A DNA stretch of 64,000 bases from an uncultured Bacteroidales bacterium (GCA_963696535.1 CAVOKP010000013.1:241790-305789), one strand, 5' to 3'. Counted from the stretch's first letter, positions 18,542 to 26,852 are shown. Program-made: numbers and translations. Notes: generated by a model not told the origin, from the letters alone.

Positions 18542-18566
18542 ATAGTTGTCACTAAAAGTAGACAGA

Positions 18567-18944
18567 ATGTACCTGACAAACGCCGAGGAGCAAGTAATGA
18601 AGGTGCTGTGGGAACTTGAAAAAGCCTTCATTCGGGATTTAATGAATGAATTTCCTGATCCGAAACCTGCCCAGACCACTGTTTTTACATTACTGAAAAG
18701 AATGATCGACAAGGGCTTTGTGGGTTTCAGGCAGTACGGGAATTCGCGGGAGTATTATCCTCTTGTAACAAAGAGTGAATATTTTTCGCGTCAGATCGGC
18801 AGCATGATCAAGGATTTCTTCAACGACTCCACTGCGCAGTTTGCATCATTTTTTGCCGGCGCGACTGATATGACCAGGGAGGAACTTGAGGAACTGAGGG
18901 AAATAGTGGATAAAAAAATTGCTAATAAAAAGGCAAAGAAATGA
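18567..18944 (+). CDS. BlaI/MecI/CopY family transcriptional repressor
   Basis: Winged-helix N-terminus LTNAEEQVMKVLWE. It is about 125 aa and overlaps the downstream M56 gene by 4 nt. Confidence 0.85.
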   Translation: MYLTNAEEQVMKVLWELEKAFIRDLMNEFPDPKPAQTTVFTLLKRMIDKGFVGFRQYGNSREYYPLVTKSEYFSRQIGSMIKDFFNDSTAQFASFFAGATDMTREELEELREIVDKKIANKKAKK

Positions 18945-21043
18945 CTGCTTTCATCATCAAGTCAGGTATCAGCATGGTTTTGCTGTTCGGTCTCTATTAT
19001 ATGAATCTCAGGAAAGAAAAGCTTTTCATCTTCAACAGGTATTACCTGATATTCTCGGTTCTGTTTTCCCTGACTGTACCCTTCATTTCGATCCCGGTGA
19101 ATATCGGCTCTCAAAATGCAGTCAGCGAATTAATGACAGTTCTGAACTATAAGCCTGAGTTAAATCCAATTGAGCCAGGAGCTGGAGCAGTCATTCCGGA
19201 AGAACCATTTCCAGGTATGGCAGATTTTTATTATTTGGATCAACCTGAATTAACAGGATTTCCCCCGTTTGACCTCAAAAAAATCCTGTTAATACTATAC
19301 CTGTCGGGACTTATGCTGATGCTGGTCCGGTTCTGCAGGAATATTTTACTCGTTCGCCGGATGTACAGGCGTTCTGAAAGAAATGAACATGAAGGATACA
19401 AGATTGCCTTGCTTGATTATCCCGTTAATCCATTCAGCTTCCTTAGTACGGTTTTTCTTAACAGGCAGGACTACCTTGAAAAGCGGATTGCCGGGAATGT
19501 CCTCAGGCATGAGATTGAACATGTCAGACAATCCCATTCATACGATATCATTTTCTTTGAGATGCTGCAGATAGTTTACTGGTTCAATCCGGTGGTTTTT
19601 CTTTATGAATGGGCAGCGAGGATCAACCACGAATATCTTGCTGATGAAGCAGTAGTCAGAAACACATCAGACAAAGAGACTTATGCATCTGACCTGATTA
19701 ATTTCATAACGGGCAGAGCCGGTGTGCCGTTTGCAAGCGGATTCGGTCAGTCCATGATAAAGAAGCGCCTGTTTATGCTGAACACGAAGAGCAGCAGGCG
19801 GACCAGTAATATCAGGTTGGGAATCACCATGATTATATCGGTTCTGCTGCTGATTGTCTCGGGAATCAGGCCAGCTTACTCTGACAATCAGGATCGCAAA
19901 AGCAAAAAGCAGATTGCTGTAAATGATGATATTGTGATTGAAGAAGTAAATTTCAGAAATCCAGATTTCAAGATTACGAAAGCCCTGGTTGTAATCGATG
20001 GCAGGGAACTTGGTCCAGATGACACTTTAAAAGTTGACCCGAAAAAGATTAAAGCCATTGGTATTCTCAAGGATCGCAGGGCAATCCGTAAATATGGCAG
20101 AATCGCCAGGAATGGGGCTGTTGAGATAACAACTTATGAAAATAACAAGGGATATGAACCTGATTCACTGTATTTCAAGCCAATTTATACAGTAAACAAT
20201 AAGATACCTGAAGGTCCGGTAACAATCCCGTTTTTGAATCTGTATTCATTAAGTATCTGGACTTATCCGATATTCCCCCAGCAGGATCTCATAAAGCGGT
20301 GGAGGACGATAGATATAATGACAAGGGACTATTACAGGATAAGAGGAAAGGTTATTCAGAAGAATGGTGAACCTTTGCCCGGAGTGGTGGTAACCGTCTC
20401 TGACAATCCTTCGAGGGTGACTTCAGACAGAGACGGGCGTTTTCTCGTGGAGGATGTAGGATCAAAGGCCGTTGCTGAATTATCGGCTGAGGGATATGAA
20501 CCTCTCTATTTTAAAGCAGGCGGAATGGTCTTCAAGTCTGACCTGACGATAACACTCGACAAAAAGGATGAACCTGATCAAACCGTGATATGGCTTAATG
20601 ACAAAATCAGGGATTTTTCAGGCAGATGGAAATACAACAAGGAATTGTCCGGGCTGCCCGTCAATTTAAATAATTATGTTTATGATATCAGTCAGTATGG
20701 TTCTGATTCAATGATGATAAGCACTTCGGCGACTCTTAAAAATGACAGGGAGCTTAATCACAGCGGGGTGTTTGTCTTCAATTCAGTAAAGACCGAAGAA
20801 TCAGATATATATGAAACCACAAAATCCACAATCACATGTTCGATCGATGCTGGCGGACAATCCTTCTCAATAACCCGTCAGATGAAGAGCAAGATTGGAT
20901 TGTACAGTGAGAACAGAATGACTGATACTTATTCGCTCAGTGATGATGGAAAACAGCTGATAATCCGCACATTAATCTATATACCCGGCGATCCTTCCGG
21001 ACTACCCAGAGAAATTCCAAAAATGGTTTTTGACAGGATGTGA
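18941..21043 (+). CDS. M56 (BlaR1-like) membrane metalloprotease / signal transducer with a long extracytoplasmic C-terminus
   Basis: N-terminal TM helices, the HExxH site RHEIEHVRQSH, and a CarboxypepD_reg-like segment (RGKVIQKNGEPLPGVVVTVSD) in the C-terminal half. Confidence 0.8.
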   Translation: MTAFIIKSGISMVLLFGLYYMNLRKEKLFIFNRYYLIFSVLFSLTVPFISIPVNIGSQNAVSELMTVLNYKPELNPIEPGAGAVIPEEPFPGMADFYYLDQPELTGFPPFDLKKILLILYLSGLMLMLVRFCRNILLVRRMYRRSERNEHEGYKIALLDYPVNPFSFLSTVFLNRQDYLEKRIAGNVLRHEIEHVRQSHSYDIIFFEMLQIVYWFNPVVFLYEWAARINHEYLADEAVVRNTSDKETYASDLINFITGRAGVPFASGFGQSMIKKRLFMLNTKSSRRTSNIRLGITMIISVLLLIVSGIRPAYSDNQDRKSKKQIAVNDDIVIEEVNFRNPDFKITKALVVIDGRELGPDDTLKVDPKKIKAIGILKDRRAIRKYGRIARNGAVEITTYENNKGYEPDSLYFKPIYTVNNKIPEGPVTIPFLNLYSLSIWTYPIFPQQDLIKRWRTIDIMTRDYYRIRGKVIQKNGEPLPGVVVTVSDNPSRVTSDRDGRFLVEDVGSKAVAELSAEGYEPLYFKAGGMVFKSDLTITLDKKDEPDQTVIWLNDKIRDFSGRWKYNKELSGLPVNLNNYVYDISQYGSDSMMISTSATLKNDRELNHSGVFVFNSVKTEESDIYETTKSTITCSIDAGGQSFSITRQMKSKIGLYSENRMTDTYSLSDDGKQLIIRTLIYIPGDPSGLPREIPKMVFDRM

Positions 21044-21166: not shown

Positions 21167-21412
21167 ATGGGAGAAATTGATGGAGAATGGTTATTCGCTG
21201 TCTGGATGTGGATAGTGGTTGTGATGCTTATTGTGATGGGAATAAGGGATTATCGGGCAAGAAGGCATTTGCCCAAGAATCCCGGGGACAAACGAGCAAA
21301 TCGAAGAATTGCTTTGGATAATCTTAAATTTTTCCTTGGAATAAAGGATAAGGATGATGGTGATAATCCAATGAAACATTTGGCAGGAGATAATGATACA
21401 CTTTTCAGATAA
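21167..21412 (+). CDS. small membrane-anchored hypothetical protein
   Basis: Has one hydrophobic helix (WLFAVWMWIVVVMLIVMGI) and a charged tail. No family was recognised. Confidence 0.3.
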   Translation: MGEIDGEWLFAVWMWIVVVMLIVMGIRDYRARRHLPKNPGDKRANRRIALDNLKFFLGIKDKDDGDNPMKHLAGDNDTLFR

Positions 21413-21430
21413 AGTATCCCCCCAACTTTA

Positions 21431-21575
21431 GAGCAGCACAGCCAATTTGATCCTTAGCCCTGAAAGGGCATGAAAAAGGCACCACCAATGTGGTGCGATG
21501 TGAATTACCACCGGTAAAACCGGTGGCTTATGGTGCCCCCTTGATGTCAAGCCCTGAAAGGGCGGGATGCTGCTT
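21431..21575. repeat. four-hairpin structured element, copy A (candidate ncRNA or structured repeat)
   Basis: Hairpins are GCCC-TGAAA-GGGC (21457-21469), GCACCAC-CAAT-GTGGTGC (21479-21496), CCACCGG-TAAAA-CCGGTGG (21508-21526) and GCCC-TGAAA-GGGC (21551-21563). A possible closing stem is GAGCAGCA / TGCTGCTT. Its homolog is at 26331-26462. Confidence 0.6.
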
Positions 21576-21585
21576 TAGAAAAGGA

Positions 21586-22596
21586 TTAATCATTGATGAA
21601 TATTCCATCTCCTGTGCCAAGCCAGATCCTCTTGTCGGTTGCCTGTTTGATTGTAAATACACTTGACTCTCTGAAGGTTGAATCATCGACAATCCATCGT
21701 TCTCCGTTAAACACTGCATATCCTCCTGACATAGAGCACCATATGTTATCCTCATCATCGACTGTCAGTGATTTTATTCTGGCCATGTCATTGATTCTTA
21801 ATTGTTCCGTATTATGTTCATCAAATATGAACACCTGAGGTCCGGGATTTATCCCAAGGCTTGATAATGAATAATCAATGGCTCCGCATATTTTATTTTG
21901 AGAATTGATATCAATGTTGGTAAAATAATAAGGGACAAATCCCAGGTCTTCACTTGTATATGTCTTCCAGTTTGTTCCTGAGATCTTTATCAGATATGTA
22001 TTATTTACAACTTCTGATAAGGCGAGCCAGACGTTATCATCACTATCGATAGCAATGCCCTTTACGGAATTGACCGGCAACTTTGAATTCTCCGGTGTAA
22101 AGACTTTCCAGTCAGTTCCATCAAATCTGACAAAACCTCCTTCCCTGAATCTGCAGGAAGTAAACCATACATTATCTTTTGAATCAATAGCTATCGAGTA
22201 AACAAAATCCTCGGGAATGGGGCTGTTGGATGTATTGTAATGTGTAAACTTACTGCCATCATATTTAATGATTCCGTCACAGCCGATCCATACATTATCC
22301 TTGCTGTCAACAGCAATATCCCAAATGACTGAGCCGGCAGGCAGAATTGAATTAGAAGAATTGTAAATTATAGTTTCCTGCGGATTATATTTTATTAATC
22401 CCTGTTTAAAGGTCCCGACCCAGGCATTTCCTTTGCTGTCAAATGCAATGGATTTAACGAAATAGCCTTCCAGTATTTTTAAGTCAAAGCTGGTGTTTGG
22501 ATTACCTGGCGATTTATCAGGGAAACTTGTTTTCTCACAGGAAGCGAGAGAAATCAATAAAGCTAATATGGTAGCTATATTTTTCATTATCAGCAT
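21586..22596 (-). CDS. lipoprotein with two-component-regulator-propeller (Reg_prop) beta-propeller repeats
   Basis: Lipobox LISLASC and repeated DSKGNAWVGT / DSKDNVWIG / DSDDNVWLA motifs, about seven blades. Confidence 0.75.
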   Translation of the reverse strand: MLIMKNIATILALLISLASCEKTSFPDKSPGNPNTSFDLKILEGYFVKSIAFDSKGNAWVGTFKQGLIKYNPQETIIYNSSNSILPAGSVIWDIAVDSKDNVWIGCDGIIKYDGSKFTHYNTSNSPIPEDFVYSIAIDSKDNVWFTSCRFREGGFVRFDGTDWKVFTPENSKLPVNSVKGIAIDSDDNVWLALSEVVNNTYLIKISGTNWKTYTSEDLGFVPYYFTNIDINSQNKICGAIDYSLSSLGINPGPQVFIFDEHNTEQLRINDMARIKSLTVDDEDNIWCSMSGGYAVFNGERWIVDDSTFRESSVFTIKQATDKRIWLGTGDGIFIND

Positions 22597-22682
22597 TTAT
22601 ATGATGAGTTTCATTACTGTTTCGTTGCGTTACCTGGTGATTTATTTTAATTGTTCAATTACTTACAAATGATCATTGTGTG

Positions 22683-22922
22683 TCATTTCCTGCCTGAAAT
22701 AACAGCTCTGCCCGCGTAGCCAAAAGCATTTAGAGTGCGTTTGTTTTCTGCCTATTCCATGATTGCTTCAATAGCCTCGCGCGGCCGCATGTCATCCGGT
22801 CGTTCTTTTTCAAAGAATTTAAGAAGTCTCCCGGCTTCTTTAGCTGGTTTAAAACCAAAAAGTTTATGGTAGTAAGAATCACGCCATAATTTACTGTCTT
22901 TGGATTTTGGTGCTTTTATCAT
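22683..22922 (-). pseudogene. decayed paralog of the Imm5-like gene at 25422-25802
   Basis: Aligns with 25422-25802 but carries TGG->TAG (open only for 56 aa, MIKAPKSKDSKLWRDSYYHKLFG...EAIME*) and an internal deletion of roughly 125-130 nt. The 3' end ...NAFGYAGRAVISGRK is still recognisable. Confidence 0.7.
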
Positions 22923-23117
22923 TTAAAGTCATTAATTCCCGTTTAAGGGCTAAAATTCCCACAAATTGTTACAAAAGTATCAGAAAATGATACAAAAGTG
23001 GTAGACTTTGATATTTGATTAGCCGAAATTTGATTTAGAATTTATGATAAGGATCCTGGAAACTGATAATGCAAACTCTGATATCAAATTCTTTATATTA
23101 ACTAAATCCATTCAACT

Positions 23118-23552
23118 ATGAAAACAAAAGCCTTCTTTTTGCTATGTCTGTTTCTTGCCTTTTCTGTTTCTCAGCTTTCTGCTCAAACCTTAAAGAAAGG
23201 TGCTGTAGTTGCAGTTGGCGTTTATGAAATGACACTTAATCCTGACGTATCAATGAATCAATTTATTGATTTTTACAACAATAAATATGTTCCGGAACTT
23301 GATAAGAACTGGCCGGGTATAAAGACATATTTAATGATTGGTGATAGAGGAGAGAACAAGAACAAATTAGGTATGATTCTGATTTTTGAATCTGTTGCTG
23401 TAAGAGATAAATACTATCCGGTTGAGGATGAGGAAACCCTCTCTGATGCAGTTAAAGCGGCAAACGAAAAGATGAAAGTAATTGATGCTGAAATGAGCAA
23501 ATATGTAGTTTCTGGAACTAGGACAACCTATACTGACTGGATTATTAAGTAG
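23118..23552 (+). CDS. secreted hypothetical protein (144 aa)
   Basis: Clear signal peptide MKTKAFFLLCLFLAFSVSQLSAQ. No family was recognised. Confidence 0.5.
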   Translation: MKTKAFFLLCLFLAFSVSQLSAQTLKKGAVVAVGVYEMTLNPDVSMNQFIDFYNNKYVPELDKNWPGIKTYLMIGDRGENKNKLGMILIFESVAVRDKYYPVEDEETLSDAVKAANEKMKVIDAEMSKYVVSGTRTTYTDWIIK

Positions 23553-23851
23553 TAATCTTTTAACAATCTGTTTCTTTTAAAGCCCTGGAAAATCAGGTAC
23601 GAAGGGAAGGTGGTTTTTATTTTACACCAGTCATTTAAGATTGTGTTTAATGCAAACGTAGAGGTAACAGTTGATCACCATGTTGAGAAAATTCAATTCC
23701 CGGGGAATGTATCATTATTAAAGATGTTACAGAAGAATCAAATCCGGGGATTGCATTCTGACTTCGGATGGCATAGCAGGCTACATCCGATTAATCCGGC
23801 GATCCGTTGGCTCTATCCTAAAATGAAACCTCATGAAGAATTGTTATAGGT

Positions 23852-25126
23852 TTACTCAACTGAAGGGTCACTGACCTTTCCCATAAATAATATAGTGCCT
23901 GTTGAGGTTTCGTGGATGAAATACAGGAAGGGGCGATCAAGATCAATTTTCCAGATGGTCGGTTCCGGATCCGGTCCTGCCGAAGTAAACCTGATCTCCA
24001 CGATTGTAGCTGCTGCCGCTTCCGTGCCCTCCTCATTTGTTTCGATGAATGACTGATGGATTACTCTGCTTATCTGAAGCCGTTGATCACTTATATTTCT
24101 GAAATCAGCCCCGTCGGAGAAGGCAATACCCATTCCCAGGCCTATCAGATCTTCATTTAATAATCTTTTGTAGTCATATTTGAACCTCGGCATGCTGAGT
24201 TCAACAATATGAGTGTTATTTTCCAGCAGCGACATCCATTTATTCCACTTTGATGATGTGAGAGACTCCGCTGCATCAGAAACGGAAACACCGGCATCGG
24301 GTAATACGATTAACATTGAATAATTGCCCTGCCCATATGGAATATCGACAATCATAAGTTCATTGTCTTTTGCAGCTTTCAGGTTTTCCTCCTGGTGCAT
24401 CATCGGAACATTTTTGGGTTCTGCTGGTGTAACATAGAACGGTTCTTCCTTTGTGTCAGTCTTGTCAAACTGATACCTCCACTTCCCGTTGAAATAGACA
24501 GCATTTATCAGAAGCATTGCAAGATCAGGATCAAGGTTATCGAGCATATCGATAATCTTATCGTGGGTTTTTTCCTCAATCCACCCGTTTACAATATCAA
24601 CTGCATCAGGATCTGTGACATCAATGCCTCTTGCTTCAGCTTTGTACCAGTTTTGTACGTCGTTCATAAACTTCTGTTTAACCAAAAGCCGTTTTTCAAC
24701 CCAGACTGAGTTGGCGATTTCGAGTACCACCCGTTCATCAACCGGTACCATCTCAGTCATCAACTTGAGGTAGGTATCATTTATCTGTTCAAGTGTATTA
24801 CCATCGAGTCTTAAAGCCTTTTTCATAGCTTCAAAGGTCTCGCCAGATGCACCATTAAGGGTCATTGAAAGAGCGCTGGTGATGCTGAAGGGAGAGATCA
24901 TTATGTTCTCATTTCCTTTTGCATCAGAAAGGATTGGTTTGAACAGATCAAATGCAAATGTATTTGCAGAGTCTATTACTTCTTTTTGATGAATATCCGT
25001 AACAATGGTTACAGGATCTCCCGGATCGATGGGCTGATCATTTTGACCATTTTTTTTACAGGAAGGAACCAGAACAAGTGAAATGAAAGCTGTTAAAAAC
25101 AATACAACTTTGGATATATTTTTCAT
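23852..25126 (-). CDS. serpin (serine protease inhibitor) lipoprotein
   Basis: Serpin motifs SPFSITSALSMTLNGASGET, the inhibitory-type hinge EEGTEAAAAT and the C-terminal DRPFLYFIHE. The start MKNISKVVLFLTAFISLVLVPSC (lipobox) at 25126 is preferred over 25171. Confidence 0.85.
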   Translation of the reverse strand: MKNISKVVLFLTAFISLVLVPSCKKNGQNDQPIDPGDPVTIVTDIHQKEVIDSANTFAFDLFKPILSDAKGNENIMISPFSITSALSMTLNGASGETFEAMKKALRLDGNTLEQINDTYLKLMTEMVPVDERVVLEIANSVWVEKRLLVKQKFMNDVQNWYKAEARGIDVTDPDAVDIVNGWIEEKTHDKIIDMLDNLDPDLAMLLINAVYFNGKWRYQFDKTDTKEEPFYVTPAEPKNVPMMHQEENLKAAKDNELMIVDIPYGQGNYSMLIVLPDAGVSVSDAAESLTSSKWNKWMSLLENNTHIVELSMPRFKYDYKRLLNEDLIGLGMGIAFSDGADFRNISDQRLQISRVIHQSFIETNEEGTEAAAATIVEIRFTSAGPDPEPTIWKIDLDRPFLYFIHETSTGTILFMGKVSDPSVE

Positions 25127-25170
25127 ATAGAGGGTATTTAGGTTACAATTCCTGAACAAAAATTGTACCA

Positions 25171-25395
25171 TTATAAATCATTGATGAAGATTCCATCTCA
25201 TGGACCAAGGCAGATACGCTTGTCGGTTGCCTGTTTGATTGTAAATACACTTGATTCTCTGAAGGTTGAATCATCGACAATCCATCGTTCTCCGTTAAAT
25301 ACTGCATATCCTCCTGACATTGAGCACCATATGTTATTCTCACTATCGATTGTCAGTTATTTTATTCTAGCCATATCATTGATTCTTAGTTGTTC
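25171..25395 (-). pseudogene. 3' remnant of a propeller gene paralogous to 21586-22596
   Basis: The reverse strand reads NDMARIK*LTIDSENNIWCSMSGGYAVFNGERWIVDDSTFRESSVFTIKQATDKRICLGP*. It is homologous to the last ~70 codons of 21586-22596, contains stop codons, and lacks the upstream ~850 bp. Confidence 0.75.
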
Positions 25396-25421
25396 AATTA
25401 CTGACAAATGATGATTATCTG

Positions 25422-25802
25422 TCATTTCTTCCCTGAAATAACAGCTCTGCCCGCGTAGCCAAAAGCACCCAGGGCATGAGTAGGCACATGCCAGGACCCG
25501 ACAGCTTGTCCGGCAGCATGTGCAGCATATTTTGCAGCATTGGATTTTGCATCCCGGGCAGCGGCATGAGCATTAAGAGATAGTATGCGAACCTCTTTCA
25601 TTCCAAGAGTGCGTTTGTCCTCCGACCATTCCCTGATTGCTTCAATAGCCTCACGTGGTCGCATGTCATCGGGTCGTTCCTCCTCAAAGAATTTAAGAAC
25701 TCTCCCGGCTTCCTTCGCTGCTTTAAGACCAAAAAGTTTATGGTAGTAAGAATCACGCCATAATTTACTGTCTCTGGATTTTAGTGCTTTTATCATTTGC
25801 AA
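25422..25802 (-). CDS. Imm5-like helical protein (family often mis-annotated as SbcC; putative immunity-type protein)
   Basis: The pattern FEEERPDDMRPREAIEAIREW...AHAAARDA...AAHAAGQAV...HVPTHALGA is recalled from the Imm5-like family. No search was run. The true start may be the third codon (25796). Confidence 0.5.
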   Translation of the reverse strand: MQMIKALKSRDSKLWRDSYYHKLFGLKAAKEAGRVLKFFEEERPDDMRPREAIEAIREWSEDKRTLGMKEVRILSLNAHAAARDAKSNAAKYAAHAAGQAVGSWHVPTHALGAFGYAGRAVISGKK

Positions 25803-25885
25803 GATAGAATGTTGTTATATGCTGAGAACCATTTCATTAGGCAGTGATGACTGCTTAATTGTTAATTATATTAGTGTAATAAAAT

Positions 25886-26227
25886 TAACTGCCTATCCCT
25901 TTCAGTCAAGTATAAGATGACTTTCGGGAATGATATATAAAATTATCAATTTTTGTTATTTATACCCCCTTCCCAGCCTTCCCTGCAGACTGGCTCCTTC
26001 GCTAAAATTGCCCACCGGGCAATTTCTTAACGCTCGACCCTCCCACGGGGGAAGGAGCAAGGCCTCCCGCTTTGCGGGACGGGAAAGGGGGTCAATTAGA
26101 ATAATAGAAAATTTACTGATTAATAAAGTTAAGATTCAAAATATTTTAAGACTGACTTCTTATTAGTGATTCCCGACACTCAATTTAATAAAATGTCAAC
26201 TACTTGATTAAAAGGGATAGGCAGTTA
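25886..26227. repeat. 17-bp inverted repeats enclosing a GC-rich palindromic element
   Basis: TAACTGCCTATCCCTTT (25886-25902) is the exact reverse complement of AAAGGGATAGGCAGTTA (26211-26227). The core at 25965-26091 (CCCCCTTCCC...GGGAAAGGGGG) is homologous, in inverse orientation, to 34998-35118. Confidence 0.65.
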
Positions 26228-26330
26228 AAATTAATTATAATACTCCATTATAGACAGATGAAGTCATCTTCGGCAAGTTTTATTTTATCCTGATTCTCCA
26301 TCTTGCGACAATTGAACAGCTATGCAGATT

Positions 26331-26462
26331 ACATTATGCTCTGCCCTGAAAGGGCAAAACAAAGGCACCACTAATGTGGTGCGATGTGAATAACCGCCGG
26401 TGTAACCGGTGGATGGATGCCACCCAATGATGTCAAGCCCTGCAAGGGCGCGATGTTATTCA
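26331..26462. repeat. four-hairpin structured element, copy B
   Basis: Hairpins lie at 26343-26355, 26365-26382, 26394-26412 and 26437-26449. Their spacing is identical to copy A (offsets 0/22/51/94). Differences fall in loops or give a G-U pair (CCGCCGG / CCGGTGG). Confidence 0.6.
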
Positions 26463-26490
26463 AAATCCGCACAAATGAAAGATGACTTAA

Positions 26491-26636
26491 GGTGACGAGA
26501 ATTCAGGATTGCCTCCGGCGATCCATTGGTGGGGGAGCTTCAAAGGCATCAGATCAGACGCCCTGCGGGCTTTAACGAGGGATTACCTCCTCTCTTCATT
26601 CGTCGGTGATCCCTTGTGGGGGAGGCTTCAAAGCCA
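26491..26636 (+). repeat. two tandem ~85-nt units (candidate small RNA region)
   Basis: GGCGATCCATTGGTGGGGGAGCTTCAAAGGC (26517-26547) matches GGTGATCCCTTGTGGGGGAGGCTTCAAAGCC (26605-26635). Each is preceded by ACGAG..GGATT.CCTCC. No credible ORF is present. Confidence 0.4.
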
Positions 26637-26644
26637 GAGAAAAA

Positions 26645-26671
26645 ACACGCCTCTGGCGTGTTTTATTTTTT
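26645..26671. terminator. bidirectional intrinsic terminator
   Basis: Stem ACACGCC (26645-26651) pairs with GGCGTGT (26655-26661). It is flanked by an upstream A-run and a downstream TTTATTTTTT. Confidence 0.65.
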
Positions 26672-26723
26672 GTTTTACTTTCGCCACCTTTCGAAAGCGA
26701 GCTTTCTTTGGTGTCTCAGTAAA

Positions 26724-26749
26724 ACAAAAAAACCGTGCTTTGCACGGTT
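26724..26749 (-). terminator. terminator downstream of tRNA-Ser
   Basis: Stem AACCGTGC (26731-26738) pairs with GCACGGTT (26742-26749). An A-run on the + strand (26724-26732) gives a T-run on the - strand. Confidence 0.7.
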
Positions 26750-26760
26750 TTCTCTGGCTT

Positions 26761-26852
26761 TGGCGGAGAAAGAGGGATTCGAACCCCCGGTCCACCGATA
26801 GGCGGACAACGGTTTTCAAGACCGCCGCATTCGACCGCTCTGCCATTTCTCC
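26761..26852 (-). tRNA. tRNA-Ser (anticodon UGA), CCA encoded
   Basis: The reverse complement is GGAGAAATGGCAGAGCGGTCGAATGCGGCGGTCTTGAAAACCGTTGTCCGCCTATCGGTGGACCGGGGGTTCGAATCCCTCTTTCTCCGCCA. It has acceptor GGAGAAA/TTTCTCC, anticodon loop CT-TGA-AA, a long variable arm and the T-loop GTTCGAATC. Confidence 0.9.

What the first reader, a model, noticed from the sequence alone, without database searches (positions are those of the whole stretch)
21586..25802. Duplicated propeller + Imm5-like module with reciprocal decay, including a deletion between 10-bp direct repeats
Module 1 (21586-22922) has an intact propeller gene and a dead Imm5-like gene, with TGG->TAG and an internal deletion of about 125-130 nt. 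Module 2 (25171-25802) has an intact Imm5-like gene and only the last ~70 codons of the propeller gene, with stop codons. In module 1 the 10-mer TTAATTGTTC occurs at 21798-21807, inside the propeller gene, and again at 22647-22656, upstream of it. Module 2 has a single TTAGTTGTTC (25386-25395) exactly at the junction. The ~850-bp loss therefore looks like a deletion between short direct repeats. This is a clear snapshot of paralog subfunctionalisation or decay in an accessory region. It also suggests the propeller lipoprotein and the Imm5-like protein once formed a functional pair.
Basis: seen in the sequence. Interest (0 to 1): 0.55.

Follow-up and report, generated by a model that had tools for sequence, protein, structure and literature searches.

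The report
Duplicated gene pair, each copy half-dead
A two-gene block (a small immunity-type gene plus a propeller lipoprotein gene) occurs twice in this Bacteroidales-like genome, and each copy has lost a different gene, once by a deletion between 10-bp repeats; this is real and tidy but ordinary genome turnover, and the two genes do not appear to work as a pair.

Summary
Window 21585-22924 and 25173-25798 are colinear direct repeats, 90-91% identical. Copy 1 has an intact Reg_prop propeller lipoprotein gene and a dead Imm5_like gene: W57 TGG->TAG, plus an in-frame net 135-nt deletion that removes the conserved core. Copy 2 has an intact Imm5_like gene and only the last 73 propeller codons, with two in-frame stops. 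The 849 bp missing from copy 2 lie exactly between the only two TTAATTGTTC 10-mers in the 64-kb window. Chance microhomology of 10 nt or more has probability about 8e-5.

Relatives add three points. A single-copy relative (L116) spans the same BlaR1-like to tRNA-Ser interval with both genes intact and adjacent. Other relatives (L030, L036) have a 3.4-kb segment between the two genes. The copies are old: dS is 0.23-0.32, about the same as between these lineages.

The "functional pair" idea is not supported. Outside this small clade, none of 20 Imm5_like loci has the propeller and none of the propeller loci has Imm5_like. "Subfunctionalisation" is the wrong term; this is reciprocal loss of redundant copies.

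The Imm5_like protein is a cytoplasmic all-helical protein. Its only credible fold match is SsdAI, the immunity protein of a deaminase toxin. The events are ordinary. The most interesting side issue is how mobile and how conserved across phyla the Imm5_like unit is.

The parts
21586..22596 (-). Copy 1: intact propeller lipoprotein gene (336 aa). The likely true start is the ATG at 22587, giving MKNIATILALLISLASC with lipobox LASC.
   Evidence: Pfam Reg_prop 73.5 bits. 89-92% identical, full-length homologues. Related to the periplasmic propellers of Bacteroides hybrid two-component sensors, PDB 4a2l and 3v9f.
21798..21807 (.). Direct repeat TTAATTGTTC inside the propeller gene (codons 264-267). 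Left boundary of the segment missing from copy 2.
22647..22656 (.). Second TTAATTGTTC, in the 86-nt spacer between the Imm5 stop and the propeller start. Right boundary of the missing segment.
   Evidence: The spacer is conserved in L116 and L036.
22683..22922 (-). Copy 1: Imm5_like pseudogene. TAG replaces the invariant W57 (22752-22754). A net 135-nt in-frame deletion at 22729-22731 removes residues 65-110, including invariant H77, W102, H103, P105 and H107.
22923..23117 (.). Intergenic region joined directly to the Imm5 start codon. It contains a ~75-85-nt dispersed repeat (22958-23033). The junction is shared with L030 and L036.
23118..23552 (+). 144-aa secreted protein of unknown family. 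It lies between the two copies.
   Evidence: No Pfam, NCBIfam or PADLOC hit. 98% identical in L030 and L036. Frameshifted in L116.
23553..23851 (.). Junction region between the convergent 144-aa and serpin genes. About 235 nt (23597-23831) has no homologue in any relative.
23852..25171 (-). Serpin lipoprotein gene. The likely start is M16 at 25126. It lies between the copies and abuts the propeller remnant exactly as serpin abuts the intact propeller in L036.
   Evidence: Pfam Serpin, E = 5.5e-112. Window 23832-25395 is colinear with L036 7202-5645.
25174..25395 (-). Copy 2: propeller remnant, the last 73 codons plus the L030-type ending. It has two in-frame stops.
25386..25395 (.). Single TTAGTTGTTC at the deletion junction.
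25422..25796 (-). Copy 2: intact Imm5_like gene (124 aa, ATG at 25796).
   Evidence: Pfam PF21805 93.2 bits. Identical protein P0001 in public data. dN/dS of 0.14-0.25 against relatives.
25797..25888 (-). Ancestral ('canonical') 5' flank of the Imm5_like unit. It is present only in copy 2.
   Evidence: Homologous to L028, L029, L022 and L023 (to 25855) and to L116 (to 25888).
21450..21569 (.). Hairpin-rich repeat D3 immediately after the copy 1 propeller. It sits where relatives carry an HTH-pentapeptide/ABC transporter segment.
26336..26455 (.). Second copy, D3' (81-84% identical to D3), next to tRNA-Ser. This position is conserved in relatives.
26761..26852 (-). tRNA-Ser(TGA), the conserved right-hand landmark of the variable region.

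Best explanation
The variable region lies between a BlaR1-like gene (18941-21043) and tRNA-Ser (26761-26852).

Inferred steps:
1. An ancestral block, Imm5_like -> 86-nt spacer -> propeller lipoprotein, became duplicated head to tail (period 3,588 bp), with its neighbours (a serpin and a 144-aa secreted protein) lying between the copies.
2. The most likely route was an in-situ segmental or tandem duplication in this lineage, followed by flank deletions.
3. Both copies stayed functional for a long time.

Shown steps:
1. Each redundant gene was then lost once.
2. In copy 2 the propeller lost 849 bp (its promoter and first 263 codons) by a deletion between two 10-bp direct repeats, the kind produced by replication slippage or illegitimate recombination. 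The remnant then picked up nonsense mutations.
3. In copy 1 the Imm5_like gene acquired W57->stop and an in-frame 45-codon deletion of its conserved core.
4. The genome is back to one working copy of each gene.

No functional coupling between the two genes is needed to explain this. Imm5_like is most likely an orphan cytoplasmic immunity-type protein against DYW/BaDTF2-type deaminase toxins. The propeller is most likely a surface or periplasmic ligand-binding lipoprotein.
For: - Colinear 90-91% repeats.
- Gene identities.
- Lesions read codon by codon.
- The 10-mer occurs only at the two boundaries in 64 kb. Random endpoints in this region give 10 nt or more of microhomology with P = 8e-5. The flanks at the junction are the expected hybrid.
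- Single-copy state in relatives that cover the same interval: L116 has M56-81aa-ABC/HTH-propeller-Imm5-...-144aa-D3'-tRNA-Ser-HU on one contig, with both genes intact and adjacent. The L030/L036-type locus continues through L124 and L125 to tRNA-Ser with no second block.
- The propeller-serpin junction of copy 2 and the 144aa-Imm5 junction of copy 1 both exist in single-copy L036.
- Age: dS(copy 1, copy 2) is 0.23 for the propeller and 0.32 for Imm5, against 0.33 for window versus L030 or L033. dN/dS of the dead copies is still 0.13-0.23, so most of the divergence accrued under selection. Of the 19 propeller differences, 13 fall on the remnant's branch.
- Copy 2 Imm5 is 92% identical to the L030 gene, which is typical for the rest of the region. 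This favours an origin in the same lineage.
- Imm5_like: AF2 model with pLDDT 92. Top PDB fold hit is 7jtu_B, the SsdA deaminase toxin-immunity complex (prob 0.99, TM 0.58). SsdAI is the all-helical immunity protein (PMC7901873). Imm5 is linked to DYW deaminases (PMC3482391).
Against: - Trees of the shared segments leave copy 1, copy 2 and the relatives as an unresolved polytomy. The copies are not shown to be each other's closest relatives.
- Copy 2 keeps the ancestral Imm5 5' flank (as in L116 and L028), while copy 1 shares a derived junction with L030 and L036. An in-situ model therefore needs an ancestor that carried both junction types, plus at least 3 later deletions.
- About 235 nt between the 144-aa gene and the serpin has no traceable origin.
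- No reads were available to verify the assembly.
- The Foldseek E-value for SsdAI is only 0.5, and no sequence-level link exists.
Confidence: 0.6

Rival explanations
1. Xenologous 'duplication'. The second block (Imm5 5' flank, Imm5_like, propeller, serpin) was not copied in situ. It was imported from a related lineage about 10% diverged and integrated next to the resident block, for example by Campbell-type or homology-facilitated recombination. The same reciprocal losses followed.
For: - Divergence between the copies equals divergence between lineages, and the tree is a polytomy.
- The extra block is absent from every relative that covers the interval.
- Copy 2 carries flanks (canonical 5' flank, serpin) that copy 1 lacks.
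- The Imm5_like unit is demonstrably mobile: 95% identity over 457 nt between L116 and L028/L029, whose flanks are unrelated.
- The serpin is only 85.5% identical to the L036 and L033 serpins, against 90-93% for neighbouring segments.
Against: - Copy 2 Imm5 is as close to the L030 gene (92%) as the rest of the region is.
- No donor-like lineage was found that is closer to copy 2 than copy 1 is.
- No integrase or mobile-element gene is adjacent. The only recombinase in the window is XerD, 17 kb away.
Confidence: 0.27
2. Assembly chimera. Two related genomes, each with a single block (one with a dead Imm5_like gene, the other with a truncated propeller), were joined in the 144aa/serpin intergenic region.
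For: - The source is a metagenome-derived contig.
- The copies differ by about as much as co-occurring relatives do.
- The 235-nt junction region is unique to the window.
Against: - The copies are 9-10% diverged, so this cannot be repeat collapse.
- A k-mer misjoin would switch inside the shared segment, not at a unique junction with no shared sequence.
- Both outer flanks (M56 side and tRNA-Ser/HU side) belong to one syntenic interval in L116.
- The contig is reported as 582 kb.
Confidence: 0.06
3. Imm5_like and the propeller lipoprotein form, or once formed, a functional two-gene module such as an operon, and that is why they were duplicated together.
For: - Same strand, with an 86-96-nt spacer that is conserved in the window, L116 and L036.
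- The two genes were duplicated as one block.
Against: - No co-occurrence outside the immediate clade: none of 20 Imm5 loci has the propeller, and only the clade's own contigs among 26 propeller loci have Imm5_like.
- In L030 and L036, 3.4 kb with genes on the opposite strand separates them and the propeller stays intact.
- Each gene survives alone in this genome.
- The products are cytoplasmic versus lipoprotein, so in different compartments.
- The Imm5_like unit moves as a single-gene 457-nt unit.
Confidence: 0.07

Closest known systems
Reciprocal (complementary) gene loss after segmental duplication; non-functionalisation of redundant paralogues
   Same: A multi-gene block is duplicated. 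Each gene is later inactivated in one copy only, which restores single-copy dosage.
   Different: It is not subfunctionalisation in the duplication-degeneration-complementation sense, because no sub-functions of one gene are partitioned. The copies also differ in their flanks, so the history involves more than one rearrangement.
Deletions between short direct repeats (replication slippage or RecA-independent illegitimate recombination; classic E. coli lacI deletions, from my own knowledge)
   Same: The undeleted copy has the repeat at both boundaries. The deleted copy keeps one repeat with hybrid flanks. The repeat is 10 bp and the span is about 850 bp.
   Different: Nothing substantive. The event is inferred by comparing paralogues and orthologues, not observed directly.
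Imm5 / Imm5_like predicted immunity proteins of polymorphic toxin systems (Zhang et al. 2012, PMC3482391) and SsdAI, the immunity protein of the SsdA deaminase toxin (PMC7901873, PDB 7JTU)
   Same: Strong Pfam PF21805 match. Small all-helical cytoplasmic protein. Best fold match is the SsdA-SsdAI complex chain. Relatives include giant multi-repeat proteins that resemble 'polyimmunity' proteins.
   Different: No toxin gene is adjacent here or in about 30 other loci. The protein is unusually conserved (62-81% identity across many bacterial phyla and archaea) and has four invariant histidines. There is no detectable sequence similarity to SsdAI.
Orphan immunity genes / acquired interbacterial defence clusters of Bacteroidales (mentioned in PMC10470768; otherwise from my own knowledge)
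   Same: An immunity-type gene without a cognate toxin, in a variable region of a Bacteroidales-like genome.
   Different: A single gene rather than an array. No associated recombinase. Protection was not tested.
Periplasmic beta-propeller sensor domains of Bacteroides hybrid two-component systems (PDB 4a2l, 3v9f, 3ott)
   Same: Reg_prop repeats, E = 1e-13 to 1e-17 against these chains.
   Different: A stand-alone 336-aa lipoprotein with no kinase or regulator domains. The ligand is unknown.

Membership tests
Pfam Imm5_like (PF21805) | Sequence scores above the family's gathering threshold | tested here: met
   93.2 bits against a cutoff of 25, E = 1.6e-26, residues 28-122. All close homologues carry PF21805.
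Pfam Imm5_like (PF21805) | All-alpha fold like known deaminase-toxin immunity proteins | tested here: inconclusive
   AF2 model: six helices, pLDDT 92. Top Foldseek PDB hit 7jtu_B with prob 0.99, TM 0.58, rmsd 2.5 over 92 columns, but E = 0.5. No sequence-level hit.
Toxin-immunity pair of a polymorphic toxin system | Immunity gene immediately next to a gene with a C-terminal toxin domain | tested here: not met
   Neighbours in the window are a propeller lipoprotein, a 144-aa secreted protein and a serpin. Neighbours in other genomes are GNATs, DUF1801, CYTH, DUF362 and similar.
Toxin-immunity pair of a polymorphic toxin system | The protein neutralises a cognate toxin | not testable with these tools
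   Needs co-expression with DYW/BaDTF2 deaminase toxins.
Reg_prop beta-propeller (PF07494) lipoprotein | Multiple Reg_prop repeats above threshold | tested here: met
   73.5 bits against 20.4. PDB relatives 4a2l and 3v9f.
Reg_prop beta-propeller (PF07494) lipoprotein | Lipoprotein signal peptide with a lipobox cysteine | tested here: met
   MKNIATILALLISLASC read directly from the translation. No dedicated predictor was run.
Segmental duplication with reciprocal loss | Two colinear direct copies, far more similar than chance | tested here: met
   Three colinear blocks at 90-91% identity, E = 4e-87 to 3e-29.
Segmental duplication with reciprocal loss | Single-copy state in related genomes across the same interval | tested here: met
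   L116 covers M56 to HU with one block. The L030/L036-type locus plus L124 and L125 also has one block.
Segmental duplication with reciprocal loss | The two copies are each other's closest relatives (in-situ origin) | tested here: inconclusive
   NJ bootstraps split: copy 2 sister to copy 1 in 102 of 300 (propeller) and 95 of 300 (Imm5). Few informative sites.
Deletion between short direct repeats | Repeat at both boundaries in the intact copy, one repeat with hybrid flanks in the deleted copy, beyond chance | tested here: met
   The repeat sites are also present in L116, L036 and L030, with at most one mismatch.
Conserved two-gene module (Imm5_like + propeller) | Co-occurrence of the two genes across genomes | tested here: not met
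   None of 20 Imm5 loci with at least 1.2 kb downstream has the propeller. Imm5_like is present in only 3 of 26 propeller loci with at least 600 nt upstream, all from the nearest clade and separated by 3.4 kb there.
Integron gene cassette (considered for the Imm5_like unit) | attC site at the 3' end and an integron integrase nearby | tested here: not met
   My R''/R' hairpin scan found nothing at the expected places. The window's only tyrosine recombinase is XerD (319.6 bits against the XerD model, 151.7 against 265 for the integron integrase model). No IntI-like hit in 115 loci. The proper attC model (IntegronFinder) was not available.

The most novel reading that the evidence does not exclude
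The Imm5_like gene is a self-contained mobile unit of about 457 nt: a 57-nt 5' flank, a 375-nt ORF and 22 nt of 3' flank, with sharp boundaries. It has spread across many bacterial phyla and archaea as an orphan anti-deaminase immunity gene (or, given its four invariant histidines, as a small enzyme). The window and its relatives record repeated copying or relocation of this unit within one locus: four arrangements in four relatives. The 'duplicated module' would then be one episode of an unrecognised cassette-type mobility.
Probability: 0.3. Interest if true: 0.5.

Novelty: new member of a known kind. Interest (0 to 1): 0.25.

Why it matters
This is a clean, fully resolved textbook case. The intact and decayed states of two genes sit side by side, and the deletion mechanism can be read from the sequence. 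It also shows how fast this accessory region rearranges between close relatives.

Its practical value is mostly for annotation. Two pseudogenes should be flagged, and no propeller/Imm5 'system' should be inferred.

The wider lead is the Imm5_like unit itself. It is highly conserved, occurs as a solitary gene in very different phyla, and is structurally closest to the immunity protein of a DNA-deaminase toxin. If it protects against such toxins, it would be a widely shared orphan immunity gene.

Tried and rejected
- Integron-cassette idea for the Imm5_like and propeller units. The unit boundaries start with GTTA (GTTAGCAG, GTTACGCAAC), and a 'CCTAACACGGAC...TTGTCACGGTTTTTGC' element follows gene ends in other genomes. 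Against it: my attC-like scan was negative, the element is absent from the window, and no integron integrase was found. I left it as unproven.
- Rfam. Nothing but tRNA-Ser at gathering thresholds. There are no credible hits for the D3 repeat or for 25800-26770.
- PADLOC. No hits for Imm5_like, propeller, 144-aa protein or serpin.
- Sequence search of the PDB with Imm5_like, as a single sequence and as a profile. Only chance-level hits.
- Exact-protein look-ups of the window's Imm5_like (P0001) and 144-aa proteins found no contig, so the source contig and its strain variants could not be examined. The HU look-up was what finally gave the informative relative, L116.
I repeated it with database proteins only.
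- Rooting the duplication with quartets and NJ bootstraps gave no resolution.
- A search for the origin of the 235-nt junction (23597-23831) found nothing.

Full report
**1.

A BLASTN comparison of 21400-23100 with 25000-26000, and an independent repeat search, give three colinear direct blocks:
- 21585-21807 ~ 25173-25395: 223 nt, 204 identical.
- 22647-22728 ~ 25386-25467: 82 nt, 91%.
- 22732-22924 ~ 25606-25798: 193 nt, 173 identical.

Copy 1 spans 1,340 nt and copy 2 spans 626 nt. The difference of 714 nt is 849 nt missing from copy 2 minus 135 nt missing from copy 1. tblastn with both proteins finds no further copies in the window.

**2.

- 21586-22596(-) encodes a 336-aa protein with Reg_prop repeats (73.5 bits, cutoff 20.4). 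It has a lipoprotein signal (LISLASC, read). Full-length homologues are 89-92% identical.
- 25422-25796(-) encodes a 124-aa Imm5_like protein (PF21805, 93.2 bits against 25). An identical protein is already in public data (P0001).
- Between the copies lie a 144-aa secreted protein of no known family and a serpin lipoprotein.
- The region is bounded by a BlaI/BlaR1-like pair on the left. On the right are tRNA-Ser, an HU-like gene and a LytTR regulator.

**3. Anatomy of the decay**

Copy 1 Imm5_like reads MIKAPKSKDS...AIEAIME*AENKRTLNAFGYAGRAVISGRK*.
- Codon 57 is TAG. In 34 homologues from many phyla this position is an invariant Trp.
- 138 nt are replaced by 3 nt, a net loss of 45 codons in frame. 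The loss removes residues 65-110, including invariant H77, W102, H103, P105 and H107.

The copy 2 propeller remnant is the last 73 codons, with TAA at remnant codon 13 and TGA at codon 66.
- Its ending 'TTA TAA' is not a lost stop. L030, L036 and L051 end the same way.
- With L030, L033 and L034 as outgroups, 13 of the 19 differences between the two propeller segments fall on the remnant's branch and 5 on the intact gene's branch.

**4. The deletion between direct repeats is well supported**

In gene orientation:
- Spacer upstream of the propeller in copy 1: ...CATTTGTAAGTAATTGAACAATTAAAATAAATCACC...
- Inside the propeller gene in copy 1: ...CATAATACGGAACAATTAAGAATCAATGAC...
- Copy 2: ...CATTTGTCAGTAATTGAACAACTAAGAATCAATGAT...

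Copy 2 therefore has the spacer context on one side, one repeat, and the intragenic context on the other. The 10-mer occurs only at these two places in the 64-kb window, on both strands (expected 0.22). For random deletion endpoints in this region, 10 nt or more of microhomology occurs with P about 8e-5. The single-copy relatives L116 and L036 have the same spacer with GAACAATTGA, and propeller orthologues have GAACAATTAA at the same codons. The deletion therefore happened in a block with copy 1's architecture.

**5. What relatives show**

Exact-protein look-ups and a metagenome scan gave several contigs 88-93% identical to this region.

L116 (ENA ERZ25039461, 14.8 kb) spans the entire interval on one contig. 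Its order is BlaR1-like, the 81-aa gene, an ABC/HTH-pentapeptide segment, propeller, Imm5_like, a 91-nt Imm5 5' flank, a 3.4-kb segment 'X', an intergenic region with an 85-nt repeat, the 144-aa gene (frameshifted there), a D3'-like element, tRNA-Ser and HU.
- It has one block, with both genes intact.
- The two genes are separated by the same spacer as in the window.

In L030 and L036 (JGI wetland or sediment metagenomes) the same X lies between Imm5_like and the propeller.
- X is inserted about 15 nt before the Imm5 stop. L036 still keeps the Imm5 3' end and the spacer in front of the propeller.
- Imm5 there starts directly after the 144aa-side intergenic region, exactly as in copy 1 of the window.
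- L036 has the serpin immediately after the propeller, exactly as in copy 2: window 23832-25395 is colinear with L036 7202-5645.
- L124 and L125 overlap the end of L030 and run into D3'-tRNA-Ser-HU, so these genomes also have a single block.

So the extra block is specific to the window's lineage. The Imm5-spacer-propeller adjacency is ancestral to this small clade, and the region rearranges constantly.

**6. Age and origin**

- Synonymous divergence between the copies is 0.23 (73 propeller codons) and 0.32 (63 Imm5 codons). Between the window and L030 or L033 it is 0.33.
- dN/dS of the dead copies against relatives is still 0.13-0.23. Most of their divergence therefore accrued under purifying selection, and the inactivations are late.
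- NJ and quartet analyses leave copy 1, copy 2, L030/L036, L051 and L116 unresolved.
- Copy 2 keeps the ancestral 5' flank of Imm5, shared with L116, L028, L029, L022 and L023. Copy 1 shares the derived junction of L030 and L036.

Two histories fit:
- (a) An old in-situ tandem duplication of a larger unit (144aa ... X ... Imm5-propeller-serpin), followed by several deletions. One of these would be recombination between Imm5 copies.
- (b) Import of the second block from a related lineage.

I favour (a). Copy 2's Imm5 is 92% identical to the L030 gene, the same as the rest of the region, and no closer donor was found. The call is not strong (0.6 against 0.27).

A chimeric assembly is unlikely. 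The copies are 10% apart, the unique junction shares no sequence that could cause a misjoin, and both outer flanks belong to one syntenic interval. Reads are still needed to exclude it.

**7. The 'functional pair' is not supported**

- Among 29 Imm5_like loci from other genomes, 20 have at least 1.2 kb of downstream sequence, and none has a propeller homologue.
- Among 40 propeller-orthologue loci, 26 have at least 600 nt of upstream sequence. Only the L030/L037 and L036 contigs contain Imm5_like, 3.4 kb away.
- L033 (90% nt identity) has 8 kb of upstream sequence without Imm5_like.
- Imm5_like has no signal peptide, whereas the propeller is a lipoprotein.
- A reciprocal loss pattern is expected half of the time by chance.

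**8. What Imm5_like probably is**

- The family has 778 cluster representatives at E <= 1e-3. These include 1,390-3,069-aa proteins with 4-12 tandem domains, which resemble the 'polyimmunity proteins' of Zhang et al. (PMC3482391).
- The AF2 model is a confident helical bundle (pLDDT 92).
- Its only high-probability PDB match is chain B of 7JTU, the SsdA-SsdAI deaminase toxin-immunity complex. SsdAI is described as exclusively alpha-helical (PMC7901873). Zhang et al. link Imm5 to DYW-type deaminases, the group to which SsdA belongs. That chain B is SsdAI is my inference from its all-helical fold.
- Two features are unusual for an immunity protein. It is 62-81% identical across Hydrogenedentes, Kiritimatiellia, Verrucomicrobiota, Planctomycetes, Spirochaetes, Elusimicrobia, CPR and several archaeal MAGs. 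It also has four invariant histidines.
- In L116 and in L028/L029 the same 457-nt unit is 95% identical while the flanks are unrelated. It therefore moves as a single-gene unit.
- I tested an integron-cassette explanation and could not support it.

**9. Verdict**

This is a real, neatly documented case of duplication followed by complementary pseudogenisation, with one deletion mediated by a 10-bp direct repeat. It lies in a rearrangement-prone accessory region next to tRNA-Ser. The processes are well known. The instance is new but ordinary. The term 'subfunctionalisation' and the proposed propeller/Imm5 partnership should be dropped.

Noticed in passing
window 21450-21569 and 26336-26455: A ~115-120-nt hairpin-rich repeat (81-84% identical). 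It is bounded by GCCCTGAAAGGGC hairpins and has internal stems GGCACCAC...GTGGTGC and CCACCGGT...ACCGGTGG. On the minus strand it carries a terminator-like hairpin plus T-run. The tRNA-Ser-side copy is conserved in relatives (L116 8886-9009, L117, L124, L125). The copy after the propeller is unique to the window. No Rfam match.
   Followed up: partly
window 25880-26233: MITE-like element: 33-nt inverted repeats (88% complementary) flanking 288 nt with a GC-rich, strongly self-complementary core (about 25965-26095). It sits 25 nt beyond the end of the Imm5 5' flank. No Rfam hit and no homologue in the fetched loci.
   Followed up: partly
L003-L021 (genome contigs); alignment A1: Imm5_like proteins are 62-81% identical across at least 10 bacterial phyla, CPR and archaeal MAGs. 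Invariant residues include Y18, H19, D44, R46, P47, W57, H77, W102, H103, P105, H107 and Y114. The gene is always solitary, among unrelated small genes. This is unusually conserved for an immunity protein.
   Followed up: partly
L116 4475-4930 vs L028 1017-1473 / L029 169-625: A 457-nt unit (57-nt 5' flank + Imm5_like + 22 nt) is 95% identical between contigs whose flanks are unrelated. The boundaries are sharp (left ...GTTAGCAG / ATTAAGCAG, right ...CATTTGTATAG). This suggests single-gene mobility by an unknown mechanism.
   Followed up: partly
L116 4953-7719 vs L030 1626-4957 and L036 1477-4766: The same 3.4-kb segment lies upstream of Imm5_like in L116 but between Imm5_like and the propeller in L030 and L036. 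It carries four genes, including a Fib_succ_major protein. L036 retains an Imm5 3' remnant in front of the propeller. This implies an earlier Imm5 duplication or relocation in that lineage.
   Followed up: partly
L023-L029, L006, L036 3144, L039 2691, L044 373 and 10592: A dispersed element starts with (G/C)CTAACACGGAC, followed by ...TTGTCA(C/T)GGTTTTTGC...CTGCACC..TGACA. It sits right after gene ends, always on the gene strand, next to both Imm5_like and propeller genes in other genomes. It is absent from the window. It is attC-like at its 5' end (GCCTAAC), but this is not demonstrated.
   Followed up: partly
L033 619-1956 and 5402-6722; L116 7804-8231: More duplication and decay in relatives. 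L033 has one intact and one fragmented serpin copy, each about 85% identical to the window's serpin. The 144-aa gene is frameshifted in L116.
   Followed up: no
window 22958-23033; L030 1029-1114 and 1616-1700; L036 880-965, 1467-1551 and 7977-8071: A 75-85-nt dispersed repeat lies in the 144aa-Imm5 intergenic region. In L030 and L036 it flanks Imm5_like on both sides.
   Followed up: no
L017 1410-1764; L018 5001-5357 and 6276-6632: Other genomes also show Imm5_like turnover. A Kiritimatiellia MAG has a copy with an internal gap (residues 87-100 missing). Another contig has two tandem copies.
   Followed up: no
P0241 (2410 aa), P0282 (3069 aa), P0285 (1390 aa): Giant proteins with 4-12 tandem Imm5_like domains (34-36% identity to the query). 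They resemble polyimmunity proteins.
   Followed up: no
window 26506-26640: Two direct copies of GTGGGGGAG(G)CTTCAAAG(G)C, about 90 nt apart, downstream of tRNA-Ser. The segment 26506-26573 is 96% identical to L116 9185-9251, much more than its surroundings (79%).
   Followed up: no
window 18546-21043: BlaI/MecI-type repressor gene followed by a 700-aa BlaR1-like M56 peptidase with a CarboxypepD_reg domain. This is the conserved left landmark of the variable region.
   Followed up: no
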